Shown piece by piece: positions 3,330 through 57,697 of a stretch of DNA of 64,000 nucleotides; within the stretch, counting starts at the first letter, position 1; the number at the start of each line of letters is the position of its first letter. The translations under genes were made by a program, and so were the position numbers. The DNA comes from Antedon mediterranea. Lineage: Eukaryota > Animalia > Echinodermata. The notes beneath the pieces were generated by a model. It ran no database searches and was not told the origin of the DNA. It saw only the letters and a program-made list of their open reading frames with translations. The stretch lies in the NCBI RefSeq assembly GCF_964355755.1, contig NC_092672.1, positions 25,240,437 to 25,304,436 on the forward strand. Reading direction: 5' to 3'.

Positions 3330-3367
<38 letters not shown>

Positions 3368-6523: not shown

Positions 6524-6530
6524 AGTCATC

Positions 6531-13068: not shown

Positions 13069-13916
13069 TTCGTTTCTATAACAAATTTAAAGTCGTCGAC
13101 TGCAGCCAGTTCGTCTTCGCTAAAATTACAATTTCTCAACACTAACGTCACATGCTCCTTGTCAAACACACTTGACAATTGTATCGGAGATACGTCCATA
13201 CATTCGATACACACCGTCATCGGATAAGCGCTCGGCCGCATATCATTACCAAACGTCAGCCTGTTGCACCTTACAAGTCGAACGTCTTTCAAACCTCCTC
13301 CTCCTCCTCCTCCTCCTGCACCTCCTACATTTGTCATCAACGTAGATAAAAAACTGTCGACGATCGGCACATCTATCAAAGTTAAACGTTGCAGAGATTG
13401 TATGCAGAGTACACTTTCAGCAAACGTTCTTCCCATCGTGGCACGTTGTCGTTCGCGTATTGCCGCGATCAAAATCTCGTCTGGATCGTGCTCGACTGCT
13501 TCACTCACAAAACGTACAATAGACCGCAAATCCATTTTCTGATCCTCTACGTTGTTGTGCATACGTTGCAAAATCTGAGCAATACACTTGCGTCTTCGAC
13601 TCGCGCAAGTGCATTCGTTACAATATTTCCTGTCAATACGTACTACAGTCACGACGCATTTCTGACACGAAGACACCTTGCAATTTGCGCATCTATACAT
13701 CATTTTACATGTATCGCATGCTTTTGCGCCGCAGTGTATACAATTCTGTAGCAAGAATCGAGTGCACTTTCGACAACGATCCGTTTTCTCATCACCGTAT
13801 ATCAAGTCGTTCCAAACTTTTGAAATATTCGACGTACACAGTCGGCGTGTCGGATCATCTTTTAGACAATCGCGTATACTCAGGCATACCTCTAACGGTA
13901 CCTTGATCATTGTCAT
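13065..13916 (-). CDS. F-box-like plus Cys-rich zinc-binding region plus LRR-like C-terminus
   Basis: KVPLEVCLSIRDCL...NISKVWNDLI fits an F-box; multiple CxxC; LQRLTLIDV, LKDVRLVRCNRL and LVLRNCNF are LRR-like. Confidence 0.6.
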   Translation of the reverse strand: MTMIKVPLEVCLSIRDCLKDDPTRRLCTSNISKVWNDLIYGDEKTDRCRKCTRFLLQNCIHCGAKACDTCKMMYRCANCKVSSCQKCVVTVVRIDRKYCNECTCASRRRKCIAQILQRMHNNVEDQKMDLRSIVRFVSEAVEHDPDEILIAAIRERQRATMGRTFAESVLCIQSLQRLTLIDVPIVDSFLSTLMTNVGGAGGGGGGGGLKDVRLVRCNRLTFGNDMRPSAYPMTVCIECMDVSPIQLSSVFDKEHVTLVLRNCNFSEDELAAVDDFKFVIETK

Positions 13917-14122
13917 GTCGCGTGGACGCGTTGAAAACACGTTTATAACATCAACACAACGATATCATCACTTTTACGCACACATTAAAAAAACAAACAA
14001 CAAATTAACGTTTCGATTCTTTATTATCATCATCTCAGAAACAAAAATTTAATGCTAGTACGTACTGCGCATATATAAACGAAATAAATTCATAACATTT
14101 TTTTATTTATTTATTTTTTTTT

Positions 14123-15049
14123 TCAAATCTCAATATCCCATAGAATGTTCAACAGTGCTTCACTGCAGTCTCTGAAATAATAACTCAAATGATCATGTTC
14201 TGCACTGGCCATTTTCATATCTAAGCACACGTCATAACAATCTCGGACGTCTTCGTAACTGTTTGCTGCCAACAATTTGTGTTTAAGCATACAAATGTCC
14301 GTTCTGATAGCGCTGTAGCCGCCGTCGTAAGCTTCTCTCTCTACTGATACTGACTGAGCATTGTAACTGACGAGGGCATTCTGAATAAAGTTCATCAAGT
14401 CTCCCACGTACATTGACTGTCGAAGACTTATCACTTCTCCAAACGTTGATGCCTTGTTGTACTCTGGATACTGATACACGCCTAAACATATGTTGAGCAA
14501 CGTGTCCAATTCGTAGCCTACCAAACCAAACATTTTTGTATCGTTCGGGAACATCGATCGTGCTTCCTGCAACAGTCGCACACATCTCGTCAACTTTGAC
14601 AACGAGTTGCAATTGTTCAGCTTAGCGTGAAGATTGTTCACGTACACGTACAAATCTGACATTATCGGTAACGGTTGAGTATACGGGTAGTTGTAGTCGA
14701 TATTGCAGTACTTGAACGCAGTTGATAGCCAATTTCGTATATCTTCTTTACTCATTTTCTTTCGTTCATCAATTTTTCTATGAAACATATCTTCGAAATT
14801 ATCTATAGGATATTGGACGGAATAACTATCGATTATAACGTTCCTGTTCTTCATGATCGGGTCGTAGTCGTCGAGTATACGCATGCTATCTTCACATCGC
14901 ATTTCTAGTCTACGCGACGTCGGATTTATGTTCCACTGAAGCATTATACGCTCTTTTGCATCGCCGTACGTAAGTGCATGGTCTTCGATGTACCACGTTG
15001 AATCGTTGTTAAATCTGTAAGCAAATCTATGGTCATCGTTTGACATCAT
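14123..15049 (-). CDS. Protein with an N-terminal DWNN (RBBP6-type ubiquitin-like) domain
   Basis: FAYRF...LTYGDAKERIM...LEMRCEDSMRILDDYDPIMKNRNVII parallels DWNN HYKF...ISLCDLKKQIM...DDNALIPKNSSVIV. Confidence 0.65.
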   Translation of the reverse strand: MMSNDDHRFAYRFNNDSTWYIEDHALTYGDAKERIMLQWNINPTSRRLEMRCEDSMRILDDYDPIMKNRNVIIDSYSVQYPIDNFEDMFHRKIDERKKMSKEDIRNWLSTAFKYCNIDYNYPYTQPLPIMSDLYVYVNNLHAKLNNCNSLSKLTRCVRLLQEARSMFPNDTKMFGLVGYELDTLLNICLGVYQYPEYNKASTFGEVISLRQSMYVGDLMNFIQNALVSYNAQSVSVEREAYDGGYSAIRTDICMLKHKLLAANSYEDVRDCYDVCLDMKMASAEHDHLSYYFRDCSEALLNILWDIEI

Positions 15050-15152
15050 CGTGAATGAAAATGAAAATATGGAATCGTAATCAGTTCCTTTTAACCATTA
15101 ACAAGACACATACAGAGAGAGAGAGAGAGAGAGAGAGACGCACAGCGCGACG

Positions 15153-16190
15153 ATGACAAAGGCTCTCAACTTCAACACCGATTGGTTTATTGTAGGCAAC
15201 GAGAATGCGACGGGTGGTGTTGGTGAAACACTACGAGATGAATTTAATAATACCGATTGGACGAGTTGGAAGGTGATGAAGACGGATGATGAAGCAGCAG
15301 CAGCAGCAGCAGCAACACGTCTACCCGTTCTACAACATTCAAAATCAAATAAACGAATACAGCTTAACAAAATGACGGTACAAGGCAGACGATTACTCCA
15401 ACCGCACGTACATCCCAATCAATGGATATTAATAGATGTTGACACTTTGATATGTTACCACGATGAAGACAGAACGACGTTTCTCACTACACATCGTTTA
15501 CCTGCAAGCGCGTACACGCAGCTGTCGTGTAACAATCCTGATCGGATACGCTTCGGTCATGCATCGATCGCGGCCCGGAAATGCTGGAAACAAAACACAA
15601 AGATTCCGTACGCGGCTATCCCGATTCGATACATGGATCGCGACACCACGTTCGATATACGCGATGCGAGTACACTCTTCTACAAGGTTCTCTTGACCGA
15701 CAGTCCACAATACAAATCTCCAGAATCGTATTACAGAGCGTTGGTGCAACGTGATAAACAGCCACCGTGGACTGTCGAAGTCAGACAATACATACTGAAC
15801 ATACCGCTTCCTCCTCCCGCGCCAGATATCGAATACTTCGAAGCCATCATGCGCTCAGTTGATTTCAGAACGAGCGTTAGAAACAAACGATTACCGTTAC
15901 AATCCGGTGAATCGGCCTCTTTTTTGCGCGCCGAGCCCATTGTAATAGATAAACACGGTGACAAGTTTGCTCTTCGACCGGCCGACGTCATGACGCCCAC
16001 CGCATATCGTGAATTCTACTCACAAGTTGGATGGACTAACGCGCACGACTTTGAAAAATGTATACAGTCCGTTTACAGATTCATGCATTGTCCCGTTGTC
16101 AGAAGAAATCTGTCGAACGGAGAAGTTGAATTCACGATTCTCATTCCTCTGCCGCCGCCTTCTCCTCGTTCTCCCTCCTCTGTGTCATGA
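15153..16190 (+). CDS. Hypothetical protein, 345 aa
   Basis: Long ATG-initiated ORF in a compact gene block; no recognised motif. Confidence 0.75.
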   Translation: MTKALNFNTDWFIVGNENATGGVGETLRDEFNNTDWTSWKVMKTDDEAAAAAAATRLPVLQHSKSNKRIQLNKMTVQGRRLLQPHVHPNQWILIDVDTLICYHDEDRTTFLTTHRLPASAYTQLSCNNPDRIRFGHASIAARKCWKQNTKIPYAAIPIRYMDRDTTFDIRDASTLFYKVLLTDSPQYKSPESYYRALVQRDKQPPWTVEVRQYILNIPLPPPAPDIEYFEAIMRSVDFRTSVRNKRLPLQSGESASFLRAEPIVIDKHGDKFALRPADVMTPTAYREFYSQVGWTNAHDFEKCIQSVYRFMHCPVVRRNLSNGEVEFTILIPLPPPSPRSPSSVS

Positions 16191-16244
16191 TGATGAGCAC
16201 ATGAACGTATTTCGCGCACGAAACGACACAGCAGCACAGAGACG

Positions 16245-17270
16245 ATGAAAGAGTACACTGTTTGTTCGTTGATCACAACATGTTTCGCTACGTCTATTGT
16301 AATCGACGTACTGTTACAGACAAACGTTCATCCGATAATCGATTGGCACGCCATCTTTCTACCCGTTTGCCTCTACGCCATATTCGTACACGCTGCATCG
16401 ACAACAAAACTCATATCGGCGTTTCGATTGAGCATGTGCGCGGCTGCAAACATATCGTTTCTGTCCAATATGAAATTTCTGATCGGACCGTGCGGTGTAT
16501 CCTATCGAGATCCGATGCAAGAGTGCGGTGCTCACGGAACTGATGCACGTTGTCATCGTGCCATGACGGACGCTCTTCGATGGCAAGCCGATCAACGACG
16601 TTGTCCCATGGTAGAGTTGGGGACAGCTGCCGGTTCCATTTACTACACTGTACAAATGTTGCTTGTCTATCTGCCCACCGGTATTCTGCCGGTAATGCTA
16701 CACATAACCGATCGTTCAAAAGGAAATCAAGTTCTAGACTGCTGGACGTGGTACATGTTCGTTGGACTGCCTATAGTCGTTGCCACGCTACTGGTGGACG
16801 TTCTAGCCGGAGCCGTTGTATATCCACTTTGTTCTGAGCACGTAGTGTACGCGTTCCTGTCTGCCGCCATGATGTCCAGATACTCATCGTTGGAACGCAT
16901 ATGGGAGGCGGTTTCATTGACGTCGGTGGCTATGACAATCCTGGATCTGATACGCAACGTTTTTATCTATAAACTCGGTCCATGTATGTTTGACGGTCGT
17001 GAACTGTTCAAATGTGATGAGCTCGATAGCTGCTATCAGAATCTACTCGATTTGAGCGCACACAAACTAGATTCATCAGACTGTCCGATCAACAAAGTAG
17101 GTCGACACTGGGCATTCGCTCTCATGATTTTGCATCTGATCAGATTCTTCACCATAGTCTTTATTCAATGCTTTATGCTGATGCATAAACGTCATTTTCT
17201 GAGAAAAGGCGATGCCGATGGAGAGGAGGATGATGAAGATGTTCTGTTCACTAAAGAACGGAAAGTTTGA
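16245..17270 (+). CDS. Multi-pass membrane protein with an internal two-fold duplication
   Basis: About 6 TM segments; repeated Cys loops LIGPC...C...C...RCPMVELG and KLGPC...C...C...DCPINKVG. Confidence 0.78.
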   Translation: MKEYTVCSLITTCFATSIVIDVLLQTNVHPIIDWHAIFLPVCLYAIFVHAASTTKLISAFRLSMCAAANISFLSNMKFLIGPCGVSYRDPMQECGAHGTDARCHRAMTDALRWQADQRRCPMVELGTAAGSIYYTVQMLLVYLPTGILPVMLHITDRSKGNQVLDCWTWYMFVGLPIVVATLLVDVLAGAVVYPLCSEHVVYAFLSAAMMSRYSSLERIWEAVSLTSVAMTILDLIRNVFIYKLGPCMFDGRELFKCDELDSCYQNLLDLSAHKLDSSDCPINKVGRHWAFALMILHLIRFFTIVFIQCFMLMHKRHFLRKGDADGEEDDEDVLFTKERKV

Positions 17271-17339
17271 TGATACGACAAAGGCAAATACAAAAAAAAA
17301 AATGTCTTTACATTGCGTGTTTTTTTTTTGTTTCTATTT

Positions 17340-18486
17340 GGGTCGCGTCACCACGAAGGGAGCTTTGTGTCGCAAAAGCTATATTGCTATAATTAGCTGA
17401 CGCTTTAAATGCTGGCCTTCTTGCTATTGCTGACGATACGGCCCTGTTCATCGACTAGCTAGGCTTACATACATTCAGGATTTTTTTTTTTTTTTACTCG
17501 GTGAGGGGCTGAAGAAAATGGGGTAAGTGAAAATGAGGATGAGGATGAGGATACTAAAGACTGGATGGGAGATAGACGAAGATTCTGACGGCGAGGATAG
17601 TTATTGAAAACGAAGAAGAATGTGTAAGAATTTGTATAGGCCTAATCATGATCTAAGAGTAGAAGTGAGTTATGTTAACAGATTGTGTGCTCAAAATAAT
17701 CCATTAATCAACATAATTATGCAATTTTTAATGGTTGATTTTATATATGAAGATGATAATAAAATTGAAAGAAATTAAAGTGTAATCTTTATTCGTATTC
17801 ATTTATTTTCATTTCATTTATTCCACATTTATTTAGTCATCAACTACAGTACATCATAATTACAGTACAACTGAGAACAGGGATCCTGCATAAAAAAGCT
17901 ATAGCTTCGTTTTTTTGTAGGACCCTTTTACATAAGAACAAGTATATAGAACTTAAATAAACAAAGGTGTTGTTAATCAGCATATAGTGATAAAAAGTAT
18001 TTTTTAACCTGTTTTTTTATACATTTATTTTGTTTCTTTAAGATAACCGGTTTATTACCACCATTACAAGTGAATTCTTTCCACAATTTTGGTCCATATA
18101 TGTGTATAAACTGTTGACTGCAAGTTAGTCTTGTGAAGGGAATTTCGAATTCAGTTTCTGTTCTGAGGTTATGAGTAGGCCTAATACTGTCACAGTAATT
18201 AAGAATATTTAAAATGTGATGTGGTAATTCATTGAATTCATTGTTTAAGTGTGTAAAATTTAATGTAGATCCATTAATAATGACTAATGGTATTCAAGGC
18301 GAATGTGTTGTGGATATTGAATAGAACCAAAGTACCGGTAATTGTCCACTGAACTTCAAAGGCTGTTTTCTAATTGTTGATAATCTATTGAATTCGGAAG
18401 TAATCTATTGAATTCGGGTCGTATCTTAATTGCCTTGAAAGAAATTATAATTTCAACACAAGGCTCCGTTTGTTATGACACGAGCC
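17340..18486. mobile_element. Non-autonomous TIR transposon with a 4-bp ATTT TSD (Sola-like)
   Basis: Left end GGGTCGCGTCACCACGAAGGGAGCTTTGTGT is an imperfect inverse of the right end ACACAAGGCTCCGTTTGTTATGACACGAGCC; ATTT at 17336-17339 and 18487-18490. Confidence 0.7.
17804..18235 (-). mobile_element. 5'-truncated CR1/L2-type LINE 3' end nested in the MITE
   Basis: Minus strand reads HNLRTETEFEIPFTRLTCSQQFIHIYGPKLWKE, with a 3' hairpin and an (AAATG)n tail; ATTCATT duplicated at 17797 and 18236; empty site at ~58645. Confidence 0.75.
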
Positions 18487-18606
18487 ATTTATTCTTCAGC
18501 CTTTGAATCAAATTACATGTATTATTATTATTATATATTTTTTAAAAAAAGTATGAAGATTAAAAGTTATCGTTAATGTACAGCGTCGAGTGCACATGCG
18601 TGCGTG

Positions 18607-19179
18607 ATGTTGAAGCTAAGAGGATTGATTTTCGACGTATTTATTGTTTTATTCGTTGTAAGTGTTCCATGGAATTGGTTATTATTGTACAGAGAGAGAG
18701 TGGCGGTTAATCGGGCCGAGATGACACAGCTTGTCAACAAATGTGAAAAGCAACAGAGACGAATCACAGAGAATGCTGATACGATGAATGTGTTTGTGTC
18801 GTGGTTGCGAACAAATATCTTTATAGAAGAAAGAGACGAATGTACCGAATATCACAGAAACTATGTAGTACATCCGATCCTGTCCGTTTCGCCGGTTGAA
18901 GCGTTTGCCAAGACCGTTTCTAGCTTGATAGAAATTCCTGCTCGGGCACTTGGAAAGGCAATGTCTGACTTTAACTTGAATTTCATAGGCAGAATTCCAA
19001 TTTCAATCTGGATTCCTGCCCTATTAACATGGTCTTCTATGCTCATAGCTACAGTTACGTTCGTCTATTTACTCTGTCTAAAGTACAGTCGTCCAAACAC
19101 CGTATTCGTTACTGCACTGTCCACGAAGAAATGTTGGTCGTCGCGAAACGGTAAACATCGGTTAAAAGTAAACTCGTAA
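18607..19179 (+). CDS. CLCC1: Chloride channel CLIC-like 1 (CLCC1/MCLC) homolog, minimal viral form
   Basis: SVPWNWLLLY...KC...WLR...DECTEYH...VHPILSVSPVEAF...PARALGKAMSDF matches CLCC1 SFLWNWMYLY...WFR...DPCQKYY...VNPIWLVPPTKAL...EPLKHIGKG. Confidence 0.85.
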   Translation: MLKLRGLIFDVFIVLFVVSVPWNWLLLYRERVAVNRAEMTQLVNKCEKQQRRITENADTMNVFVSWLRTNIFIEERDECTEYHRNYVVHPILSVSPVEAFAKTVSSLIEIPARALGKAMSDFNLNFIGRIPISIWIPALLTWSSMLIATVTFVYLLCLKYSRPNTVFVTALSTKKCWSSRNGKHRLKVNS

Positions 19180-19606
19180 AGCTTTGTCACTCTGAAACGT
19201 TGAATACTTTTCACACCACACCCACCACTATCAAGAAGTGTTTTGTGTATACACACACACGATATTAAAGTCTAATTTTTTTTTTTTTTATAAACTATTA
19301 TTTTACCATGCACAAATAATATAGTATTCTCTGGATAATAAGTTCTCGAGCCGTGAAGAAACGGTACAAATATGTAATGCTCGCTTTCTACACTATACCG
19401 TTTCGATTTTATCAAGAAGCGAACAATATTATTTGTATACACACACTCACACACACGTACACAAGATAGTAAACTTGTTTACTCTTCTGACTTTTTGTGT
19501 GATTGCGCCCTCTGTATATTTTTTATTATTTACCCATACACAAATGATTTTCACGGCTCCCATGATAATGAACAAGTCAGGCACCCTCAGTGTAAGCAGA
19601 TAACGT

Positions 19607-20408
19607 CAAAGAATATTATATCACAAGAATGAGAAATCCGTGATTTTCCATGTAACAGTAATTTGTCCATGTGGTAGGGGGCCGCCATAAGTGAGGATGT
19701 ATCTGGGATGTATACAACTTTTCATGATAAAAAAATGTTATCAACTAGATGCCAACATTATGTTAAATGCTATTTGGATATTTAATTGTTCGTTTTATGC
19801 AATTTATTTAGTAAAAACTGCCGTATAAACAGTTTGCTTTATCAACCGGGCGCTACGATAGCGTGACCGGGCGTGTTGGTGTTTACGCGTTTTCACGAAG
19901 GATAGTTTAATAATATTCCTATATTTAACTTGTTTCTGGTAAAACAAATACATGTTAATGACATTTAACATTTTATCCTATTAATAACATGTATTTTATA
20001 CTAATTTGTATCATAAAAACAATACTTAATTTACCGGGCGTAGAGTACTACGCGGCAATGATAAGAATAGACCGTGCTGAGTAAGGATTCGTTGATTTTT
20101 GGTGTTGCTGTGTTAGGCCTTTTTTTGTGAACGAATTTAGCATGTTAGTAAATAATTGTCTGTAAATAAAGTGAATGTACACTAGTTTTTTTAATAAATA
20201 TGTATTATAAAATATATTACAATTGCAAAATATATTATCATAATTCTATTTAATGTGACATGTATAATACGGTATCTATTAAATCAAGTCTTATTTAGTA
20301 TGTATACATCCGCCCTTATGAGGGCGGACATCACTCTCTGGAGCTCTCTGTTACAAATATCTCATGAAAAAATCGCGGAATACTCATTCTTGTGATATAT
20401 ATTCTTTG
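19607..20408. mobile_element. P-element-superfamily-like MITE, 802 bp
   Basis: TIR CAAAGAATATTATATCACAAGAATGAG / CTCATTCTTGTGATATATATTCTTTG; perfect 7-bp TSD ATAACGT at 19600-19606 and 20409-20415. Confidence 0.85.
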
Positions 20409-21372
20409 ATAACGTTTACTGAACCGCGCGGAAGATTTTTTTCGAGCGGGCGGTATCAAACAATCATTTATTTAATGTGTTTTCAATAGTTAAAAGATAA
20501 CACTTATTTTATGTAAAATATTATTACGCCCTTAATGTATTACTTTTTAGCTATATCTATTTTAAAATGTAATATTGATTATAACGTGGAATACATTTGC
20601 ACTTTGGTGCAATTGTATTCGACAATTAAAGTTTATATGTAACCGGTTTTCTGTGCATGTCTTCGAATAGAGTTTTTATCCGCATTCAGTAGTCGTCCTA
20701 AATTCTGCACACAGGATGACAGAGCCATGAACACACACACACACGCACGCGCACACGCACCCACACACAAGAAATGAATAAATAAAAAGAAACAAACGTG
20801 ATGTAACTTTTTAAAATTTTTTTATTTGTTAAAACGATTTCCGAGTTAACGACATTTAAATTCATAAACAATAAATACAGTACAATAATATATTGAAATT
20901 CTATCAATAAATAAAACATTAAACAAACTGAAATTTCAGTCAACCGTGATGCTGTATGTACATAACAATATGCACCACTAGCAGCAGATATTACAAAAGT
21001 ATGGATTCACGTACAACGAACTAGGTTAAAATCCACAAACAAATATATTATACATATGTATATTTTTCCTGCTTTATAACTAACCATTTCTGCTTTGTAC
21101 CCCAAAGCGTTTGGAAGTGTGCCTTTATAACTATGCCTTTTCATATTTGATGATTTTCTTCACCTGATGATCGGCTATGCCCGAAACATAAACTTATATA
21201 TTGAGGCAGTTTTAACTGATTTGATCTTGATTTTTTTTTCTATGTCCTGCCTATGATTTAGGTCTATAGGCCTATATATATTTAGTTAAAAATTTATACT
21301 TGTACAACTAATGATGAAAGGTATTATTTAATTAAACCAACAAAAGACAAATTATTGACAATGAAACTATTT

Positions 21373-23870
21373 TCATTTCAATACGCGCATGACAGTACCA
21401 CTAGAAAAAACCGTTATATCAAAAATGTTATTTTTGAATGGTAGAGTTGTCTCCACCATTCCTAAATTTTCGCTGCAGATAGTAAATACGTCATTGACGT
21501 AATCTTCAAAGAATAGATTTTGGAACACAATAACGCGTTTGCATCTATTCAAATACCTCATTATGGTTTGTTTGTCTTTTGTTGGCTTCATTCTGATATA
21601 CGTGAAGCCATTCCATTTTAATATATCTGCTACTTTTGCCGTGTCACTGTTATGTACAGCAGAGCACGACGAAGCTATCAGGTAGTCTATATTGCTGTTG
21701 TTGTCGTTTTCGGAATCAAAGGCGTACGTTTCCTTAAAAGGCAGAAGTGTGCTTTGCCTGTGAAAGAAAACATGACGTAAATAAAAAATAATGATTTTCG
21801 GGTTTTTGGGGAGCATTTTCCTGCATGAACAAGAATAATAGTAGGTGAACCTACCATGAAAACACGCCTCTGGTTCGTTGAGGGCGTTTACAACGACCCG
21901 TCGAATGTAACGGTTGTTGCTGTGTTGATTCTATATGAAATCAAATATATATAATATTATATTATAACAATCATATGAGCAGCGTTAAATAGTATCGTTC
22001 GCCAACAATGCATTTACTTTAATTTACCTTTGTCCACGGTTTCTTCTTCTTTCGGGTTGAACGGGTGCTCTTCCGAGGGAACTCTTACGAATGTACTATG
22101 AATAAATTATATATATGTATATATGAATCGAATAAATAAACAAAAATGTAATGTCAAGAGAAGAAAAAATACTTACGGCATTATTGGTATTCTTGTTACT
22201 GAAATTATAAAAAAAAAAAGAAGAAAAACTGGTTTTATTATACAACTAATAGTACGTGGTGCTGGTGCTAGTTTGCAACCAATTAAAACATATACAAGGC
22301 TTCTCGGAGAAGGATTTACTACTGGATGTGTTCAGGGTACACATCTGATTCGTGCCCTCTTTGAATATTTATTTATGCCAATGAGCATCAAGTTTTTCAG
22401 TATGAATCATATCTATCTAAATATCTATATTATAAGTAAGAGACAAACAAACAAACAGACAGACGTACAAACTCTCTCACTTATAATATAGATATATAAC
22501 GTTAGTATTGTATTTACCTTTAACACTATCTTTCCATTGTGAAACATTCTGAACTGATGTTCGTTGTACTAAAACCAAATTTAAAAAAAAAAAAAAGTTG
22601 ACAAACCACAATCATTGTCATTATGCGCTGCATAACACGGTAAAAAGGGTTACTAATTGGATACATGCAAACAAGCTATCACTAAATATGCTAAAAAACA
22701 ATTTTATGTTGTTTAGTAACAAATAATATAGTATGTTACCAAAAGATATTATTTTCAACAATGTTCCTATTAATCAAATAACCAACACAAAATTTCTTGG
22801 TATATTTATTGACGACAGACTTGACTGGAAAGCCCATGTTAATTACCTTTGCAAATTATTATCAAAAAAAATGTTGGCATGATGTATAAATTGAAATCAA
22901 TATTTCCTCAAAAAGTATTAAATATTTTATATTCTACTCTTATTTTATCGTACTTAAATTATTGTGTTCTTGCTTGGGGAAATGCTTCAAAATCAATTAT
23001 TACTAAAATTTTATTAATCCAGAAACGAGCTGTCAGAATTATCTCAGGGGTAATTTTTCGTGCTCACACCCAAGATCTCTTTCAAAAAAACAAAAAAATA
23101 TTAAAAATTGAGGATCTCTATAGATTTAATGTTGGTGTCATCATGTTTCAATTAACCGCCCGACACCTATAATATCCAGTAAATTCACTTAAAATAAACA
23201 ATACCACACTCACCAAACAAGACAAAAAGATTAGTATCACCTGCCATTTACTCGAACTAAAATGAATACCCTTGTATACACTGGACCTAAACTCTGGAAT
23301 TCTCTTCCTTTATCTCTTAACAAAATCTCATAACTGTGCTTTATTTAAACGTCAATTTAAACTATTATTGGTTGAAGGTTCTTTGTAAATTCTTTTATTA
23401 TTGATGTATTTGATATTTCTTAAATAATTTATATAATCTATTTTTTACTTGTTTTTTTTTTTAGTTTTAAACATGTTAAACTTATGTGTTAGAGAAAAGA
23501 TATTAGTTTAATTGTTGTTATTTTTTTTTTGGAGTTTCTAATTGTGTTATAATATTATTTCTATTTTATTTGTTTTGTTTTGAGGAGCCTATTCACAACA
23601 AGCTTTGCTTTCTTTTAGGCTCCTCCACTTTATATTTATATATTTGTAAAGTGAAATAAATAAATGAAATGAAATGAAAAGATATATTACAATATTCTTG
23701 ATAATATCGAATCATGCCCTTGTAAAACTATGGTAACATTATTTCTTCTTGATAAAACAAAAACAACAAAACTAGTGACACTATAGAAATAATATTACGT
23801 TGCTAAATCAAACAATACACATTTATGAATTACCTTCAACATCGTCAGTCCACCACGGAGTCATCCACAT
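21373..23870 (-). CDS. Putative multi-exon gene of unknown function (exons ~23870-23834, 22568-22518, 22198-22177, 22095-22028, 21930-21373)
   Basis: Canonical GT/AG sites join the first four exons in frame (MWMTPWWTDDVEVQRTSVQNVSQWKDSVKVTRIPIMPTFVRVPSEEHPFNPKEEETVDK). The junction to the 147-aa terminal ORF is not cleanly resolved. Confidence 0.5.
22640..23680 (+). mobile_element. Decayed 3' part of a CR1/L2-type LINE (end of RT, hairpin, (AAATG)n tail) inside an intron
   Basis: WIHANKLSLN, TKFLGIFIDDRLDWKAH, LYSTLILSYLNYCVLAWG, YTGPKLWNSLP; hairpin GAGGAGCCTA...TAGGCTCCTC at 23582-23625. Confidence 0.88.
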
Positions 23871-24279: not shown

Positions 24280-27200
24280 ATGAGTAAATCTGAGAGTACA
24301 GCCGATGATCTACTGCCATGTGAATTATGGCCGGGCAGTCGAATTACGGACGATATTGTGTTTGGTGAACCCATGCACATCATGTGCGTCGAGTTGAAAT
24401 CGTTTGAAATACCGACAAACTCGCTGCGCAATTGCTCCCCGCATACGTACATAATGATGATGGTGTTGTTGAGAAAAGCGTTACAGTTGCACTGCAACGA
24501 TGAACAGCACGCACTGGTGTGCTCTCTTATTGAACCTAGTCGCATCGTGGATGAAACGGTTCGGGGTAAGGTGTCGTGCGGTTACGTGTTCTGGTTGATC
24601 TTCCCACGACGTTTGCACAAAATGTTACAGTACGTTGTCAAGTCCATACTGTTGATAAACAACGGATACCTGCCAGCATGGGACACAACATTCTTGACAG
24701 ACGTCCGATGCGAAATGTTTTCCGACAACGATCTTGATGATGATGATGATGATGATGACGACGATGATGATGATAATGAACCGAAACGTAAAAAGACAAA
24801 ACGTAAACGAAACGATTCAGCAACGGCGACAATAAAATATGCATTTAAACATTTCGATTGCCGATTGGGTCGTGGAACGTCGCAAATGAAACGAACCAAG
24901 ATAAATAGCTATGTTCCACACGTGACAGTGCTCGGGGATTTTGAAAGAAGCATTGAAAAATATTTCTGTTTAGACATACCGAAAATCGAAGGCAATCGAT
25001 TGCCCCCGACTGTTAGAGAACAAGATACAGCAGAGGCGTGGCAAAAGCGCGCAGATCTGTTTACACCAAAGACTCTTTTTTCGTCATCTAGACGTGCAAC
25101 TCATCGACGTGAGCTGACACGTTTGATTGCAAATGAATCGAGTAATGCGCTAACTCTCGATCAGTTGATGACAATTGCCGACAAAGAATTGAATCTACCT
25201 CCGACTCTTAAACTGTCTTTGCAACAGATTGATCCGAGAGTTATAATGAACGAAGGCGATAGTCGTTGTGTAAGCTTCCAACATATGAAAGCGTGGATAT
25301 TGGAACCTCACATGTACGAGGCGAATTATTTTTTGAAAAGACACTTTCCTGCACTTGAAAGTGATACGAACATTGGTAATACAAAATTGTTTGTTCACGC
25401 TATGCGCGATGATGCAGCGCAATTGGACGAAGACAAAATTTCGGCAATCGGAAAACTGTATGTAACCAACCAGAATCAGAACGAAGTGACCATAGACTCG
25501 AGGTACGTATTTTATAATTATCATCATCATCATCATCATCATCACCACAACACAAATTGTAGTGTGCGTGTTTTACTTTTGATTTATAATTGTTTTCGTT
25601 TTGTTTTTTGTTTTTTTTTTTTCTTAATAGGCATTTATACGGTGAAAAATACACGGCAAAGAATCCGGGCATAGTGATGATGAGAAAGATTTTTCACAAC
25701 TTGCAATTGACTCCGGAAAGATACCGTGACAAGACTGTCGGCAAAATTTTCTTTGACATGTACACGCAAGTGCATATGGGAAGACACGTGCAAATGAGCG
25801 AAGTAATAACGCAATCGTATGCCGATATGTGGGATACCGAGATGAAGGGTTGGTGTATGAACGCGTCTAGACACAGTGACGGCAGTTTTGTTCCATTCGT
25901 ATACGAAGAGGAAACTGACGTGAAAATATCGATAGGTTATCGATATCTTTTGAACATGGTGGCTCTGATAGGTAATGTGGCCGGTGTGTCTAACGCTAAA
26001 GGTGAACTTTTGTATATTTTACTGTCGGCTATACGTATCGTATGCCCACACGATGCGATGGCCATGCACGCCATTCTGGTTGGACCTCCCGGTACGGGTA
26101 AAACGTCTGTGATGGTAGCCGCTAAATCTGTAATCGGTAACGCTTACTCAGACGACGTTACTTACCGAACACAGAAAGCCGTGCTCGTCGATAATGAGCG
26201 AAAGTACAAAAATTCAAAAAAAATACGCTTCATGAACGAATTTGTGCCACCGTCGTCTGGATCTAAAAGCGATAAGAATCCGTTGTCAATTGAAAGCAGT
26301 CAAGAAGCGGCAATAATGAAAGAGGAACTCGATTCCGGCTGTACGCGCACCGAACGAACCGAGAAGGTAACGGATCCGAACACGGGAACCACTCGACACG
26401 GTGTTCGAACCGTAATCAACGTTTGCGATAATGCCACCATAATGGCCATGAACGAAAAAAACTTGTGTAACTCGTTAAACGAACGAGTTGTCACTTTTGA
26501 CGTGGCACCCAGTGGTGTTGTCAACGTGCCCAAGAAAATGGAGGGATACGAGAAGGAATTGGATCGTTTAAAAATTCGAACGCAATTCGGCGCTCTGCGC
26601 CACAAAGTAATGGAACATGTACGGTTGGCAGAGTGCGGTCTGTATCCACGTCGATCGGAAGGAGATTCGTACAAAGACGATCGTATGCTACTGTTGACTT
26701 GCGATAGAATATCTGTCGAATTGGAAAGGCAAGGAGTCCGATTCGGATTCGCCACAGAAACTAGAACCATCAATAAACTCATCGACCTGGCACGTTTGTG
26801 CGCCTTTCACAATGCAGTGATTCAAGTGAACGGCTGTCCGTTACAAAGTCTGCACGCCAATACACCTCGATTACCGAACGAGAACACTTGTTGTCTCAAT
26901 TCAAGAATCATAGCCAAACATCAACGGTGGCTGATGCAACAGGACATGAAGCGACTACACGACATGGTAATGTCCGAGGCGCAGCCGGATCCTGCTGATA
27001 TTTTGTTTGCATTTTCGTTAATGTGTCCGATGCCACAGAACGAACTGATCATCGTGAGAACGATAGCGGATCAGTTGATTGATCCGTCTCATGATCCCGT
27101 TCATCGAGATGGTGAAACTTACTTTGAATTGACGTGCAGGAGCGAAGAGGCGCTTCTGTCCATTTTAGAGCGCAAAACGGGTGTTGCTCGCAAACAATGT

Positions 27201-28637
27201 AAGGAAATATTGTTGGCTATGCACAGTGGACGGAGTAAGTTGTTTCGAAAAATGGACGATAACGGACAAAAACAGCTTCTGTTCAAATGTAGCGAGGCAA
27301 CGGAAGCTCATCTTTCGTCACATGCAAACGAGTACCGTGAAATATCGGACGTGATGATGGCAGGAATGTGCAATGCAAAACAGTACAGGGGAAAACATTA
27401 CATATACGTTATGCTCAATGGAAAACTTACACAAGCCGCACGCTTCTTGTCTCATTTGCCCGTCTTCGCTCGACATATGTACTGGGGCCAGTCAAACTCT
27501 CAAGATCCCAAATCCAGCATCAATTATCTAGGATCGGTGCCGAAAAAGTTTACCAACGAAGAAAGATACTGGATAAAAATAAATTTAGATTTTCACGAGA
27601 CCCGACTGGCGTACGTTAGGAAACTCGCAATCCAATCGTGTGTGAGTGGAGACTGCGACGAAAACGGATCAATTGCGGTCGGTGTTGACGTGAAAGAGAT
27701 TGCCGACAGTTTAAGGGTGTTGAAATGCAGATCATATGACGGTAGCAGAGATAGACTACCGATGCCACCGCCGGTGATGAACAACGATCACACGTGCAGA
27801 TTGGTATTGGAAACGTCGAACGCTCGAGCCTTTATGGTACACGTTAGCGTCTTTTTGCCACAACATAGACGTTTGAAAAAAATACTCGAATTGTGCACAA
27901 AGGTTGTGCTCGAAGATAAAAACGCGTGCCGAGGTAATCGAATACGCGTTCTGGTAAATGACGAGTTCGAGGCGGATGAGCTGAGAAACGGTGTGAATTT
28001 GCTAACAAACGACTTGAGACACTTGATCAATTCTTCTTCGATCATCTCGGAAACACCACCACCGAACGTATTCTTTCACGTAAATCTGTTGACGTTGAAT
28101 TCATTGGAAGACGCGTGTAAGCATTACAAAGTGAAAGCCGGCGAATCAATGATCAAGAGTGTATTGGAAAAGTGCGTGTTTAAAAATATGACTGAACGTA
28201 AAACCATCATGTACGTGGATCGTAGTACAAGAGATGTGTTTCAGACGTTAGACATTCAGCAATTGGCCGAAAAGAACGGCGGTAGTCTACCGGTACACAA
28301 GTGTAAAAATCCGTATCTGACACAAACGCTTCGAAATCCAACAACCGAGGTAGTAGATCGTGATAGATTAAGATTCAAGTTAGAAGAACCGCAATTTCTT
28401 GAAGCCGAACCGTCGCACGTTCAACGACGAAAAGCATGGATTAGAATGTTGTCCGATGGTACGGAGATTAAACTGAGAGAACGATTTGGACACGACGTGG
28501 ACACTTATTTACGCCACATAAGACTCGTAGAAGATGCAATTATAGAAAAGGACAAACTGCACGCATTCAGACCACTGGTTTACAAGACTGGTGAAAAGAA
28601 ACTTTCACCGTGTACGTGCTCAAAACAAACGTTATGA
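24280..28637 (+). CDS. Large AAA+ (MCM-like) helicase, two exons (24280-25502, 25631-28637), ~1409 aa
   Basis: A GTACGT...TTCTTAATAG intron at 25503-25630 joins the 467- and 1015-aa ORFs in frame (DSR|HLYG). Walker A LVGPPGTGKT, Walker B-like FMNE, AIMKEELDSG, sensor-1 TIMAMN, Arg finger SLNERV. Confidence 0.78.
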
Positions 28638-29190: not shown

Positions 29191-29264
29191 TCATTGACTT
29201 GAAGTTATATTTTCATTTAAAAAAACAAACGAAAAAAAAAAAAACATTCCTCTAAGAAAATGAT

Positions 29265-31929: not shown

Positions 31930-31976
<47 letters not shown>

Positions 31977-51184: not shown

Positions 51185-53428
51185 TCAAGCGCAGAAAGCA
51201 TGTGCCCGTTTACAAAGGGCATCGTGACAGCGTACAATAAACAGTATTCTTTTATCTTCTTCTTGCACGCTGCTAAAAACGTGCTCGTTCTTTCTAACCT
51301 GACGTTCTTCTTGGCTCGTTGTGCATACAACTTTAGCGCAACAGTCCACATTTGTTGTCTGCTGCTGCTGCTCATATGTTTTCGCGCGAGAGAGATGCAA
51401 TGGAACGTTTGCAATCATAGCGTACATCTTATCCATTCGTTCTTGTATACTTATGATATTGTTGTTGTAAGAAGAAGAAACGAGAACGCCCAGCACGGAA
51501 TCTGTATCAATGCGACAACGTTTTCTTAGACCTCTTAGTAGATCGGTTGCGCCCACTGTCGAATTGCAACAGGCAGCAGCCAACGGATGATACGCCACTC
51601 CGTTATGTCGGATGTAGTAGGGCACTTGTCGATACAGTCCAAAGGCGATGCACATTTGCTTGTACGCGGCAGAGCTAGTCTCTTTCTTGGACACTCTACG
51701 CATCATTAGCTCGTCTACTTGCTGCGAGTCTTTCAGTTTACAGACAAGTGTTTGCATGATGTCGATGCACGTATCTATGGCCGCGTTGCAATCGCGTTCC
51801 TTCAGAGCAGTTTCAACAAAGTTTTTATCCAGTTCTGTAAGTAATGGTTCAACGTCACATTTTAAGGTGAACATGCCAGTGGTGCTGATGTTCCCGTCGG
51901 CGTGCAAACACGCGTACCTTTTCTTCTTGTTGGTCAATAACAATCGACAGAGTGTCTCTCTGTGTACAAATTTCTGCCAGCTATCACCGCCGCCGCCGCC
52001 GCCGCCGCCTATAACCTGCGCAAATCTTTCTTCCAAACGTTTTCTGCTGCTGCCACAATCATCAGCTAGTTTCACAAACAATGAATCCGTGTCTCCGTAC
52101 AGAACGTGAGCTCCGTTATCTTCGGCGCATTTCTTTAGACGACAAAGTTGCTGTCTGCATTTCGAGGTCACGTAGTTGTACAGTTGAACACTGCCGGTAA
52201 TTACTAGACACCCTATGCATTCGTTGGCGGCTCGTTTGTAGGCAGTCGCGTGCTGCGGATGAGCATCTCGCCCCAACACCAGTCTCTTCATGATAGACGG
52301 CAAAAGACCTTCGCGTACGTTCCGATCGACAAAAGAACCGTCCTCACACATTGTTGAATAGTCTACATTCTTGTCTACTATAAAGCGTGGATAGTAGGAT
52401 TTGAAATCGTACACTTCTACGTGTTCGTGAATATCGGGTACAGTTTCCAGTACAAGACCACCTTTAACGTCTCGCGTCGATTTTCTACGACGAGTGTTTG
52501 GGAAAACAGTTTGTCGACGTATAGCCTCGCGGCAAAGCAGGGATGAGAGCACCTGCGTTCTCGATGCGTTCGGGAACACTCCGACGAGTCTAGACACGTT
52601 CATCAGTGTATCAATCAATTTTTTCGATTCTACCTGTTTGCAATATTCTGGCAAAAGAGACGCGTCGTCTTGCATGGCCCCGTCCGATACGCTGGCCATC
52701 AACTCGAAACAGGATCGTCTACCAACGTACTCGTACAGGGAGTTTGGATCACAACATAACGTGCGCGCATCGTTCGTGGTGTCTAGACAAATGGGCATGC
52801 TATCGATCGGCACGTTCAATGTCTTACATCGTGCTCGTATGCTCGCTCTCACCCATTCTCCGTGATAGACGAGCACGTCAACTGAATCGAAAGATTTTAT
52901 GATTCCAAGCAGTATGCTTCGTTCATTGTCGTCTGTTGTTGCTGCTTGTACAACACTCGTACCGTCGTAAGACAGTGCCGCAATGATTCGTCCGTATACG
53001 TTCAATCTAATGATCAAGTAGAGAACGGACAGTTTTACAGGATGTATTTTTTCGCATTCAAAGTGCACTTGCTCATCATAGTGTACGTTCGAAACGAATC
53101 CATGCTCATTCAACGAGTATCGATGCCATGCACATCCGTGTACACCGACTGCACACTGAGCGTCCAGATCGTCGTCGACAGATGGAAGATTGCCGAAAGC
53201 GTTTATCATTCTCTTTCTGTTGTTTGATACAACTTTTCTGTATTTTCGATTCGATGCTACGTATTTGTCACCTCTGCTCATTACACAGTCACCGCACACG
53301 TCATCTTCAACGTATTCGACGAATTCAACATTGCTTGTCTGCAGCGACAAACGTCGTCCGATCGGGTCTGTACAACGAATTGTCAGTTTTTTCTGGCAGT
53401 ATTTCACTCGTGTAAAGTAGGCATGCAT
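51185..53428 (-). CDS. polB: Family B DNA polymerase, delta-like, compact (747 aa), exonuclease degenerate
   Basis: KGGLVLE...YDFKSYYP, REGLLPSIM, YKRAANECIG, VLYGDTDSLFV, LLLTNKKKRYA. Confidence 0.93.
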   Translation of the reverse strand: MHAYFTRVKYCQKKLTIRCTDPIGRRLSLQTSNVEFVEYVEDDVCGDCVMSRGDKYVASNRKYRKVVSNNRKRMINAFGNLPSVDDDLDAQCAVGVHGCAWHRYSLNEHGFVSNVHYDEQVHFECEKIHPVKLSVLYLIIRLNVYGRIIAALSYDGTSVVQAATTDDNERSILLGIIKSFDSVDVLVYHGEWVRASIRARCKTLNVPIDSMPICLDTTNDARTLCCDPNSLYEYVGRRSCFELMASVSDGAMQDDASLLPEYCKQVESKKLIDTLMNVSRLVGVFPNASRTQVLSSLLCREAIRRQTVFPNTRRRKSTRDVKGGLVLETVPDIHEHVEVYDFKSYYPRFIVDKNVDYSTMCEDGSFVDRNVREGLLPSIMKRLVLGRDAHPQHATAYKRAANECIGCLVITGSVQLYNYVTSKCRQQLCRLKKCAEDNGAHVLYGDTDSLFVKLADDCGSSRKRLEERFAQVIGGGGGGGGDSWQKFVHRETLCRLLLTNKKKRYACLHADGNISTTGMFTLKCDVEPLLTELDKNFVETALKERDCNAAIDTCIDIMQTLVCKLKDSQQVDELMMRRVSKKETSSAAYKQMCIAFGLYRQVPYYIRHNGVAYHPLAAACCNSTVGATDLLRGLRKRCRIDTDSVLGVLVSSSYNNNIISIQERMDKMYAMIANVPLHLSRAKTYEQQQQTTNVDCCAKVVCTTSQEERQVRKNEHVFSSVQEEDKRILFIVRCHDALCKRAHAFCA

Positions 53429-56018: not shown

Positions 56019-56369
56019 ATGAATCGATGTACGCAAATGGATGTTTGCAGATTCTTTTCGGAAAAGTACAGAGTAGATGACTTTGTAGAGAACGATGTGA
56101 ACGGAGTCGTGTCTATGGCCACCGATCGATACGTTAAGAGTGTTGACAGTCTATGCGCTTCTTTGAAGAACTTGAAATGTCAGCGAAATGCAACAGTTAA
56201 AGTTACATCACCAGCACCACCATCATCATCATCATCATCGTTGAATGTTGATCATCTTGCATCACCACCGCCACTGGCTGAGATGCAGATACCGTATTGG
56301 TTCGATGAACTGGAGCGTTCGATGAAAGGAAAACGAACGTGGTTCAGTGTCAACTATCGCATTATGTAA
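56019..56369 (+). CDS. Small hypothetical protein
   Basis: ATG at 56019, divergent from 55984, filling the gap to the protease 3' end. Confidence 0.5.
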   Translation: MNRCTQMDVCRFFSEKYRVDDFVENDVNGVVSMATDRYVKSVDSLCASLKNLKCQRNATVKVTSPAPPSSSSSSLNVDHLASPPPLAEMQIPYWFDELERSMKGKRTWFSVNYRIM

Positions 56370-57202
56370 TTCTGATGAGTAGCTTGCCAATAATTGAATC
56401 CGTCGTCTTTGAACGCAAACGATGCATCCACTGTCTGTGATGGTGGTGGTGGTGGTGGTGGAGGTGGGGCTAGCAGTTGTTTGCCCAACATTTCTGTAAG
56501 TTTCTCGAGACTGTTTATACGTTTTTCAAATTCATCGTCTGTGGTGGTGGCTGCTGCTGCTGCGGCGGCGGCGGCGGTGGGTTTAAGTTTTTTCTCTGGC
56601 GGTTCATTCGTTTCGTGTTTACGTTTTCTATTACCATGATCGTTCATTGTATTATTTTTGATTCGTTGTTCGACTGTTTTGAAGTAATCGTTGCAGACGT
56701 TAATCGTATTCTCGTTGTTTTTTGTCAACAATCGCTTGTGAATGTCTAGTATTTCGCTCAATGATGTAGCGTTTGTAACGTTCACTTGATCTTCCATTTT
56801 TGGAAAACGGCGCTTGAGCAAATCACCCAATTCGGTCTTGTTTGCCATGTTCAAGGTGGCATCATCGATGAGATCATTGGCGGCCTTAAACGAGGCGGCA
56901 ACGTCAATACCAGGATCCGTGTCCCATCGATCCGTCACCGCTTTAAAGTCTTTCATTTGCTTATTGTATTCAGGTCCGAGTCTTCCCTCCATCGTTTCTC
57001 TCAAACGGAGTATAAAGTCACCGAATTGTTCACGCAAGAGATCCACCTCTTCCTTGATTTCTTGTTTGTCTTTTACGCTGCTCTCTTCCTTGTCTTTCAA
57101 CAGCGAGAGTAGAGCATCGAGTTTTTCCGGTGGTAACGTGTTCGCCATATCTTTCACTACTTCCAATTCCGCCAGCAAATTTTCTTCCTTCTTCACAGAC
57201 AT
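56354..57202 (-). CDS. Predicted nested, in-frame scaffold gene (UL26.5-like), 282 aa
   Basis: In-frame ATG at 57202 just after the protease domain; TATAAA on the minus strand at 57244-57239. Confidence 0.55.
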   Translation of the reverse strand: MSVKKEENLLAELEVVKDMANTLPPEKLDALLSLLKDKEESSVKDKQEIKEEVDLLREQFGDFILRLRETMEGRLGPEYNKQMKDFKAVTDRWDTDPGIDVAASFKAANDLIDDATLNMANKTELGDLLKRRFPKMEDQVNVTNATSLSEILDIHKRLLTKNNENTINVCNDYFKTVEQRIKNNTMNDHGNRKRKHETNEPPEKKLKPTAAAAAAAAATTTDDEFEKRINSLEKLTEMLGKQLLAPPPPPPPPPSQTVDASFAFKDDGFNYWQATHQNYIMR

Positions 57203-57697
57203 TGCACCTTCTTTTTCCTCTTTTACTTTGCGACGACGTTTATATCCGAATCTTTTTTCTGCTGTACGTCTGGCGCTGCGCTCGTCACTACAGAACACGG
57301 CCACTGTACCTTTTCGTTGACCAGTCTCCACGAGAGAAACTTCAACGCATTTAGTGTGATCGGCGCGTCTGTAGCTGAGTGACAGACAGTTTAGATGCTG
57401 TGAGAATGGACTGCGTAAAAACGGTTTATTCGTGATCTCTATAAGAACGGCCACTGCACCTGTTCCTTCTTCGTGTGCGTCTGGATGTGTATTGTCTCGC
57501 CACCAATCTAGAACCGTACCGATGCCTCCCGATGAATGTATTCCAACACCGTTCTTACGTGCTTTCACGTGTTTCCATCGAACCGGCAATCCGATGAGTT
57601 TCCATCGATCTATCACGTCAGGCGTTACATCATATTCTTTGTCAACGACCACCGCTGTCACTTCTGTCACCACGTATCCGACAACGAAACGTTTCAT
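56354..57697 (-). CDS. Capsid maturation protease (assemblin/HK97 prohead protease fold) fused to scaffold
   Basis: GLPVRWKH (His), IGTVLDWW, LNCLSLSY (Ser), VEVSLVETGQRKGT (oxyanion G-x-R-x-G-T); helical C-terminal half ends TVDA|SFAF. Confidence 0.88.
   Translation of the reverse strand: MKRFVVGYVVTEVTAVVVDKEYDVTPDVIDRWKLIGLPVRWKHVKARKNGVGIHSSGGIGTVLDWWRDNTHPDAHEEGTGAVAVLIEITNKPFLRSPFSQHLNCLSLSYRRADHTKCVEVSLVETGQRKGTVAVFCSDERSARRTAEKRFGYKRRRKVKEEKEGAMSVKKEENLLAELEVVKDMANTLPPEKLDALLSLLKDKEESSVKDKQEIKEEVDLLREQFGDFILRLRETMEGRLGPEYNKQMKDFKAVTDRWDTDPGIDVAASFKAANDLIDDATLNMANKTELGDLLKRRFPKMEDQVNVTNATSLSEILDIHKRLLTKNNENTINVCNDYFKTVEQRIKNNTMNDHGNRKRKHETNEPPEKKLKPTAAAAAAAAATTTDDEFEKRINSLEKLTEMLGKQLLAPPPPPPPPPSQTVDASFAFKDDGFNYWQATHQNYIMR

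What the first reader, a model, noticed from the sequence alone, without database searches (positions are those of the whole stretch)
18607..19179. Viral CLCC1 homolog suggests nuclear egress
Seen: a 190-aa core with two hydrophobic segments and the paired cysteines of CLCC1. Known: CLCC1 homologs are encoded by fish and mollusc herpesviruses, and host CLCC1 has been implicated in nuclear-envelope fusion during herpesvirus egress. Inference: capsids assembled in the nucleus and budded through the nuclear envelope.
Basis: partly seen in the sequence, partly recalled or inferred. Interest (0 to 1): 0.72.

Follow-up and report, generated by a model that had tools for sequence, protein, structure and literature searches.

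The report
Minimal viral CLCC1 captured from crinoid
A herpes-like virus that likely sits in a marine invertebrate's genome carries a cut-down copy of the animal membrane protein CLCC1, whose closest named cellular relative is from a feather star, and this copy likely helps virus capsids fuse their way out of the nucleus.

Summary
The homolog is real. ORF 18607-19179 (190 aa) hits Pfam MCLC at E 2.9e-16. It keeps the residues matching human S224, C254, D277, C279 and the four prolines, and its model matches OsHV-1 ORF57.

It differs from the known viral CLCC1s in two ways. (1) It lacks the signal peptide, luminal N-terminal domain and TM1, leaving about the two-pass domain CLCC1 shares with yeast Brl1/Brr6. 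Two unnamed homologs start at the same Met. (2) These three group with crinoid (Anneissia) CLCC1 (41% identity, 98/89 support), apart from eel and catfish herpesvirus CLCC1s. This points to a fourth host-to-virus capture; the mollusc-virus copies were not in my trees.

The gene lies among herpes-like genes broken up by host repeats, so the virus is likely integrated. It is not a host retrocopy.

Nuclear egress is inferred, not shown. No capsid, terminase, portal or egress-complex gene was found in the window, and CLCC1 also serves pore assembly and lipid flux. Verdict: new variant of a known kind, interest 0.6.

The parts
18607..19179 (+). Viral CLCC1 (MCLC) homolog, 190 aa, single open frame, TM2-FD-AH-TM3 core plus basic tail
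   Evidence: Pfam E 2.9e-16; AF2 pLDDT 84.9, helices 2-55, 59-71, 78-87, 90-93, 96-129, 132-160; Foldseek to OsHV-1 ORF57 E 8e-5, prob 1.0
18622..18687 (+). First hydrophobic helix (residues 6-27), equivalent to CLCC1 TM2; S19 matches human S224; likely a signal-anchor, N-terminus in the cytosol
   Evidence: topology inferred from the host topology in PMC12639132 and K3/R5 before the helix
18688..18891 (+). Predicted luminal fist/knuckle domain (residues 28-95) with C46, D77, C79, Y82, P90 and knuckle helix 59-71
   Evidence: column conservation; knuckle hydrophobic moment 0.53 against a family median of 0.52, 3 aromatics against a median of 4
18892..18993 (+). Long amphipathic helix (residues 96-129) with P96 and P111, followed by P131
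   Evidence: moment 0.47 over residues 96-110; these prolines are 90% or more conserved
19000..19077 (+). Second hydrophobic helix (residues 132-157), equivalent to TM3
19078..19176 (+). Basic, low-confidence tail (8 K/R, no D/E in 33 aa); also basic in P0001 and P0002
18532..18537 (+). TATA-like hexamer 75 nt before the ATG (weak: AT-rich DNA)
19264..19269 (+). ATTAAA poly(A)-like signal 85 nt after the stop (weak)
17797..18235 (-). High-copy host repeat inserted upstream, inside a further repeat (about 17394-18445); its likeness to a LINE 3' end is recalled, Pfam found nothing
   Evidence: contigs of X1, X5, X7 skip it; depth up to 6295; related pieces elsewhere in the window
19599..20407 (.). 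High-copy MITE-like insert with terminal inverted repeats, downstream of the gene
   Evidence: skipped by contigs of X5 and X9; depth up to 25,000; inverted ends
24280..28637 (+). Large AAA+ helicase-like gene in two coding parts, separated near 25.5-25.6 kb by an intron-like GT-AG stretch; relatives P0157 and P0158 are single ORFs
51185..53428 (-). Family B DNA polymerase, 747 aa
   Evidence: Pfam E 1.6e-19; PDB hits
56354..57697 (-). Capsid maturation protease-like domain with a long C-terminal extension (scaffold-like; inferred)
   Evidence: Pfam Herpes_ORF28 E 1.5e-7, 31.4 bits, below the cut-off of 40; Atlas HK97 prohead protease cluster at 0.93, rank 10

Best explanation
The ORF is a two-helix core of animal CLCC1 that lies among herpes-like genes, was likely captured from a crinoid-like host, and is predicted to act as a virus-supplied membrane-fusion helper that would let capsids leave the nucleus. 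Steps: (1) Shown: CLCC1 homology, key residues, fold, TM1 absent from the open frame. (2) Inferred from trees: capture from the crinoid lineage, separate from the fish-virus captures, with a new start codon just before TM2 in the ancestor of the three short proteins. (3) Inferred: TM2 works as a signal-anchor, so the fist domain and amphipathic helix still face the ER/perinuclear lumen and the basic tail faces the cytosol. (4) Inferred from published work on host CLCC1: it oligomerises into rings, bends the outer nuclear membrane and reaches the facing membrane with its knuckle helix. (5) Inferred by analogy with HSV-1: this fuses perinuclear enveloped capsids with the outer nuclear membrane.
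For: MCLC hit. Residues whose mutation blocked rescue of HSV-1 egress in human CLCC1 (S224, C254, C279, D277) are S19, C46, C79, D77 here; the lost W209 position is not among them. The protein starts about 3 residues before W209, matching the start of the Brl1/Brr6-like domain, CLCC1 204-378. The model's only 4 BFVD matches at E<=0.001 include OsHV-1 ORF57. Sister to Anneissia CLCC1: SH-aLRT 99; 98/89. One clade with eel and catfish vCLCC1 is rejected, p-AU 0.0012. Frame kept: 9 differences in contigs of 4 runs, 5 synonymous and 4 not, pN/pS 0.23, p 0.033; all 10 listed indel rows lie outside the ORF. GC3 0.435 is like that of the viral ORFs (0.44-0.48), against 0.235 for a repeat-derived ORF.
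Against: No capsid, terminase, portal or egress-complex gene was identified in the window, so Herpesvirales membership rests on a sub-threshold protease hit. Mollusc-virus CLCC1s were not identified among my tree rows. The host is inferred from one crinoid sequence, and the two trees disagree on whether crinoid plus virus groups with sea star and urchins. The Cys spacing is the longest in the family and the W260-equivalent is T. The N-terminal domain that dimerises host CLCC1 is absent. This virus has intron-like DNA, so a 5' exon cannot be excluded. The selection signal is weak and ignores transition bias. CLCC1 has roles other than egress.
Confidence: 0.55

Rival explanations
1. The protein is a viral CLCC1 core used for something other than capsid egress. 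It would co-assemble with host CLCC1 rings as a modulator or dominant-negative and so change pore assembly, ER lipid flux or ER stress.
For: Host CLCC1 governs pore assembly and neutral-lipid flux. D277R is dominant-negative, so altered subunits can affect the wild type. The protein lacks the dimerising N-terminal domain. The window also holds an IAP, a CARD-caspase and a CD225-like gene. Dai et al. allow that vCLCC1s could have distinct functions.
Against: All tested fusion-critical residues are kept, and the knuckle helix has a typical hydrophobic moment. Repeated capture by herpes-like viruses fits a need they share.
Confidence: 0.22
2. The ORF is the last exon of an ordinary three-pass vCLCC1; the TM1 exon lies upstream or was displaced by repeats.
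For: The element has intron-like DNA. Repeats fill about 17394-18445. 138 of 146 homologs have a hydrophobic segment before TM2. P0001 and P0002 are gene calls that would also miss an exon.
Against: Three proteins 51-59% identical start at the same Met where the crinoid protein has Ser. The AGs near the start have pyrimidine fractions of 0.45-0.55, against 0.9 at the helicase acceptor. tblastn of the host TM1 region on 16000-18700 gave only one weak hydrophobic match (E 0.002), inside the neighbouring ORF. The -3 base stays a purine in the variant copies.
Confidence: 0.1
3. The virus is a nuclear Duplodnaviria lineage outside Herpesvirales that leaves the nucleus another way, so the herpes analogy fails even though the gene is active.
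For: The PolB is only 747 aa, while Dai et al. kept allo- and malacoherpesvirus polymerases over 1000 aa. The helicase has just 2 relatives, both unnamed. Most ORFs have no family. The protease score is below the cut-off, and the Atlas hits are phage-like.
Against: The best Pfam match of the protease is a herpesvirus family. All 15 vCLCC1 rows in Dai et al.'s table are Herpesvirales.
Confidence: 0.09
4. The ORF is a host retrocopy or decayed passenger that happens to lie among viral genes.
For: The window holds many host repeats; the frame has no intron, as a retrocopy would.
Against: It is 41% identical to the nearest named cellular CLCC1 but 59% and 51% to two equally short proteins. The frame is intact in all covering contigs, with an excess of synonymous differences, and GC3 is virus-like.
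Confidence: 0.04

Closest known systems
Viral CLCC1 homologs of Allo- and Malacoherpesviridae (OsHV-1 ORF57, IcHV-1 ORF16A, AngHV-1 ORF112; Dai et al., PMC12639132)
   Same: Host-derived CLCC1 core in a herpes-like genome; TM2-FD-AH-TM3 with conserved Ser, Cys pair, Asp and prolines; Foldseek match to ORF57 (TM 0.53, 21% identity).
   Different: 190 aa against 278-334 aa. No TM1, whereas the published core is TM1-TM2-FD-AH-TM3. Nearest named cell protein is crinoid. Does not group with ORF16A and ORF112 (p-AU 0.0012). Likely integrated in a host genome.
Anneissia japonica (crinoid) CLCC1, XP_033109258.1 (P0003)
   Same: Best cellular match: 171 bits against 102 or less for the next; 41% over 150 aa; starred sister in both trees.
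   Different: The host protein is 637 aa with signal peptide, luminal N-terminal domain, TM1 and a long acidic tail.
MFH domain of CLCC1 (204-378) and yeast Brl1/Brr6 (Mathiowetz et al., PMC13061601; author name recalled)
   Same: TM - luminal knuckle - amphipathic helix - TM layout; the viral protein starts almost where that domain starts.
   Different: One Cys pair and an extra knuckle helix, as in CLCC1, against two pairs in Brl1/Brr6. It descends from animal CLCC1, so the two-pass layout would be convergent. No direct comparison with Brl1/Brr6 was run.
Endogenous herpesvirus elements such as Teratorn of medaka (recalled; seen only as a term in search listings)
   Same: Long intact herpes-like ORFs in animal DNA with host repeats between the genes.
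   Different: No transposase was identified in this window; the host is likely an invertebrate.

Membership tests
MCLC/CLCC1 (PF05934) | Profile hit above the curated cut-off | tested here: met
   59.8 bits against 25
MCLC/CLCC1 (PF05934) | Conserved TM2 Ser, Cys pair, Asp and Tyr near the second Cys, four prolines | tested here: met
   S19, C46, D77, C79, Y82, P90, P96, P111, P131; Cys spacing 33 is atypical
MCLC/CLCC1 (PF05934) | Disulfide between the two luminal cysteines | not tested
   Model coordinates were not in the script's data folder, so the distance was not measured
Published vCLCC1 core (TM1-TM2-FD-AH-TM3) | TM1 hairpin before TM2 | tested here: not met
   The open stretch starts at 18577, only 10 codons before the Met; no TM1-like exon found upstream; a distant exon is not excluded
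Published vCLCC1 clades | Common descent with alloherpesvirus vCLCC1s | tested here: not met
   p-AU 0.0012; the group was named after the trees were seen; LG+G4 model
Published vCLCC1 clades | Common descent with malacoherpesvirus vCLCC1s | tested here: inconclusive
   ORF57 was not identified among the tree rows; 21% identity in the structure alignment against 41% to crinoid CLCC1
MFH domain (CLCC1/Brl1/Brr6) | Long TM helix entering the lumen, knuckle, perpendicular amphipathic helix, second TM | tested here: met
   Helix order in the AF2 model and hydrophobic moments; predicted only
MFH domain (CLCC1/Brl1/Brr6) | Ring oligomer and membrane fusion activity | not testable with these tools
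Herpesvirales (the surrounding virus) | HK97/herpes-type capsid maturation protease | tested here: inconclusive
   Herpes_ORF28 E 1.5e-7 but 31.4 bits, below 40; Atlas HK97 protease 0.93; single-sequence model unusable, pLDDT 42.7
Herpesvirales (the surrounding virus) | Terminase ATPase, major capsid protein, portal, triplex | tested here: inconclusive
   None identified by Pfam (33 ORFs) or PHROGs (21 window ORFs); divergent forms or genes outside the window would be missed; no genome held
Herpesvirales (the surrounding virus) | Family B DNA polymerase | tested here: met
   short (747 aa) and not diagnostic; no tree was built
Orthoherpesvirus nuclear egress | UL31/UL34 egress complex | tested here: inconclusive
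   No hit; no homolog is known outside Orthoherpesviridae, so absence says little

The most novel reading that the evidence does not exclude
An undescribed lineage of herpes-like viruses of crinoids captured host CLCC1, a fourth independent capture and the first from an echinoderm. It trimmed the protein to the bare two-pass fusion domain, arriving at the yeast Brl1/Brr6 layout, and uses it as a self-sufficient nuclear-envelope fusogen.
Probability: 0.4. Interest if true: 0.8.

Novelty: new variant of a known kind. Interest (0 to 1): 0.6.

Why it matters
Whether CLCC1 is itself the fusogen of the two nuclear membranes, and which parts suffice, is an open question in both papers read. A natural 190-aa version holding only the shared domain offers a direct test that TM1 and the N-terminal domain are dispensable. 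A further independent capture, from another animal phylum, would strengthen the case that herpes-like viruses repeatedly need this activity. It also points to herpes-like viruses in crinoids, which my searches did not find in print (subscription journals are not covered).

Tried and rejected
No own genome is held. No related loci in IMG/VR (CLCC1, PolB, helicase twice) or JGI metagenomes. The 'longer' word search found nothing, although the profile search found 346 proteins at E<=0.001. No PDB sequence match. The structure search of 48,161 chains gave only generic helical hairpins, best Z 7.0. The protease model was unusable; its PDB hits to TET2 (E 0.04) were taken as chance. The Atlas did not answer for the CLCC1 ORF and gave no usable hit for the 826-aa ORF. 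No RNA holder was listed, which says nothing on expression. Contig depths were not used as copy numbers. Earlier-findings look-ups gave nothing relevant. One paper on malacoherpesvirus proteins was not held. Tree rows left out: 14 of 151 for partial cover; the careful tree used 53 of those 137 homologs, chosen by hand after seeing the first tree, and its bootstrap had not settled. A chloride-channel role was not favoured, because both papers doubt it.

Full report
Observation. The ORF at 18607-19179 (+) encodes 190 aa with two hydrophobic segments and cysteines at 46, 79, 157 and 176. It hits Pfam MCLC at E 2.9e-16, 59.8 bits against a cut-off of 25, over profile positions 214-349 of 549. In an alignment with 136 homologs, S19, W24, C46, C79, Y82, P90, V94, P96, P111 and P131 are at least 90% conserved, and D77 is Asp in 118 of 136. 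The AF2 model (pLDDT 84.9) has helices 2-55, 59-71, 78-87, 90-93, 96-129 and 132-160. Foldseek on viral models gives 4 matches at E<=0.001; the only named one is OsHV-1 ORF57 (TM 0.53, 21% identity). One oddity: the Cys spacing of 33 is the longest among 133 rows.

What is missing. Cellular and published viral CLCC1 cores are TM1-TM2-FD-AH-TM3 (PMC12639132). Here the open stretch begins only 10 codons before the Met, and the Met aligns about 3 residues before human W209. Of 146 homologs with TM2 covered, 138 have a hydrophobic segment upstream, 6 begin within 12 residues of this Met and 2 have none. Two of the six, P0001 (193 aa, 59%) and P0002 (197 aa, 51%), are the closest relatives and start at the same Met, where the crinoid protein has Ser; the other four were not examined further. 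No TM1 exon was found in 16000-18700, and the nearby AGs lack a pyrimidine tract. A TATA-like box lies 75 nt upstream and ATTAAA 85 nt downstream (weak). The start coincides with that of the domain CLCC1 shares with yeast Brl1/Brr6, residues 204-378, described as TM-amphipathic helix-TM (PMC13061601). A distant 5' exon is not excluded without RNA.

Origin. A profile of the three short proteins found 346 proteins at E<=0.001, of which the best 150 were returned. After P0001, the best is P0003 at 171 bits (next 102), the CLCC1 of the crinoid Anneissia japonica; then comes Acanthaster. I looked up names for 20 of the 149 others: they include Diadema, several fishes, AngHV-1 ORF112 and IcHV-1 ORF16A. 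In a quick tree of 138 rows (14 dropped for partial cover), the three short proteins form a clade (99) sister to P0003 (99), inside a weaker group with sea star and urchin (91). In a careful tree of 54 hand-picked rows the values are 100/99 and 98/89, but this group sits with unnamed P0044, apart from sea star and urchin. Both fish-virus proteins fall among fish-like rows, and forcing them with the short clade is rejected (p-AU 0.0012; the group was named after the trees were seen). Mollusc-virus CLCC1s were not identified among the rows, so independence from that capture rests on identities (41% against 21%) and the crinoid sister group. Dai et al.'s table lists 15 vCLCC1 rows (7 malaco-, 8 alloherpesvirus), none from an echinoderm virus, and Anneissia once, as cellular.

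Surroundings. The window holds a family B polymerase, a large AAA+ helicase-like gene, a protease domain like Herpes_ORF28 (E 1.5e-7, below the cut-off) and HK97 prohead proteases, two kinases, an IAP and a CARD-caspase. About 53% of it is covered by the 29 ORF stretches counted. The helicase has two relatives, both unnamed single ORFs; here it is split near 25.5-25.6 kb by a GT-AG stretch with a strong pyrimidine tract, which points to nuclear transcription. High-copy repeats lie between genes: 17797-18235 and a MITE-like element at 19599-20407, both skipped by contigs in other runs. Thirteen runs from 6 studies hold part of 16245-19179; 9 share at least 0.38 of the words, under three organism labels. 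The likeliest reading is an integrated virus shared by related animals. One run may be the window's own source. No terminase, capsid, portal or egress-complex gene was identified, and no genome was available to look further. That P0001 and P0002 are viral is inferred; their contigs were not seen.

Constraint. Contigs of 4 runs (3 studies) differ at 9 positions in the ORF: 5 synonymous and 4 not, pN/pS 0.23, p 0.033 without correcting for transitions. All 10 listed indel rows lie in the flanks. GC3 (0.435) is like that of the viral ORFs. This is modest evidence of constraint and argues against a dead retrocopy.

Mechanism. With TM1 gone, TM2 would act as a signal-anchor, keeping the fist domain and amphipathic helix in the lumen and the basic tail in the cytosol (inference; charges). 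Human residues needed to rescue HSV-1 egress (S224, C254, C279, D277) are all kept. The knuckle helix needed for bleb rescue has a typical hydrophobic moment (0.53 against a median of 0.52), though the W260 position is Thr. Published models have CLCC1 forming rings that bend one membrane and engage the other. By analogy, the viral protein would supply this fusion step for perinuclear capsids (0.55). Rivals: a modulator of host CLCC1, pores or lipid flux (0.22); the last exon of a three-pass protein (0.10); a non-herpes nuclear virus with another exit (0.09); a passenger (0.04). Oligomerisation could not be modelled.

Papers. PMC12639132: abstract and outline, passages, section 17 whole, part 1 of 2 of the Discussion, supplement searches. 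PMC13061601: passages, section 14 whole, and a search of 12 of 18 supplementary files with no hit; its supplementary discussion of the MFH domain was not seen and may mention viral forms. PMC12768974: two passages. All others: search listings only. Searches for a crinoid or echinoderm herpesvirus or further vCLCC1s found none; subscription journals are not covered. The labels LINE-like, Teratorn and the polymerase motif comparison are recalled.

Verdict. It works like a vCLCC1 and belongs to the MCLC family, but it fails the TM1 feature of the published core and is not in the fish-virus clades. New variant of a known kind; interest 0.6.

Noticed in passing
window 18871-18920, runs X5 and X8: A second 1051-nt contig matches at 84% (42 of 50 letters), and its upstream letters read as CLCC1-like. 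Its depth is about 1/16 and 1/12 of the main copy. It may be a second viral lineage or the host gene.
   Followed up: no
window about 25500-25630: Intron-like GT-AG stretch with a pyrimidine-rich acceptor in the helicase gene; P0157 and P0158 are single ORFs there. Suggests intron gain and use of the host spliceosome.
   Followed up: partly
window 5905-6353 (-): CD225/IFITM-like gene in two pieces, both above the Pfam cut-off; likely spliced; viral or host origin unknown.
   Followed up: no
window 45900-47132 (+) and 53432-54241 (-): A three-BIR, RING IAP and a CARD-caspase in the same element. The caspase active site was not checked.
   Followed up: no
window 51185-53428 (-): PolB of only 747 aa; motif B and the exonuclease motifs look unusual against recalled motifs; best PDB hits are archaeal polymerases.
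   Followed up: partly
window 29150-36000: Seven tandem copies of a unit of about 1 kb.
   Followed up: no
window 1-10000: 7.3-kb and 2-kb duplications; ORF 157-813 repeats the C-terminal part of ORF 6531-8105.
   Followed up: no
window 12200-21800, run X5: Contigs over several viral genes including CLCC1 have depth about 460-600, but about 20 at the helicase start. This may be an amplified sub-segment; depth is not a copy number.
   Followed up: no
window 36003-36677, 40523-42163, 47159-48823: AlkB-like 2OG-Fe(II) oxygenase (weak) and two divergent protein kinases.
   Followed up: no
window 16245-17270 (+), 11510-12205 (+), 62010-62756 (-): Multi-pass membrane ORFs without a convincing family; the 341-aa one is the nearest intact gene upstream of the CLCC1 homolog.
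   Followed up: no
P0092, P0150, P0141, P0022: Unnamed homologs that begin at or inside TM2; probably fragments, but they could be other TM1-less forms.
   Followed up: no
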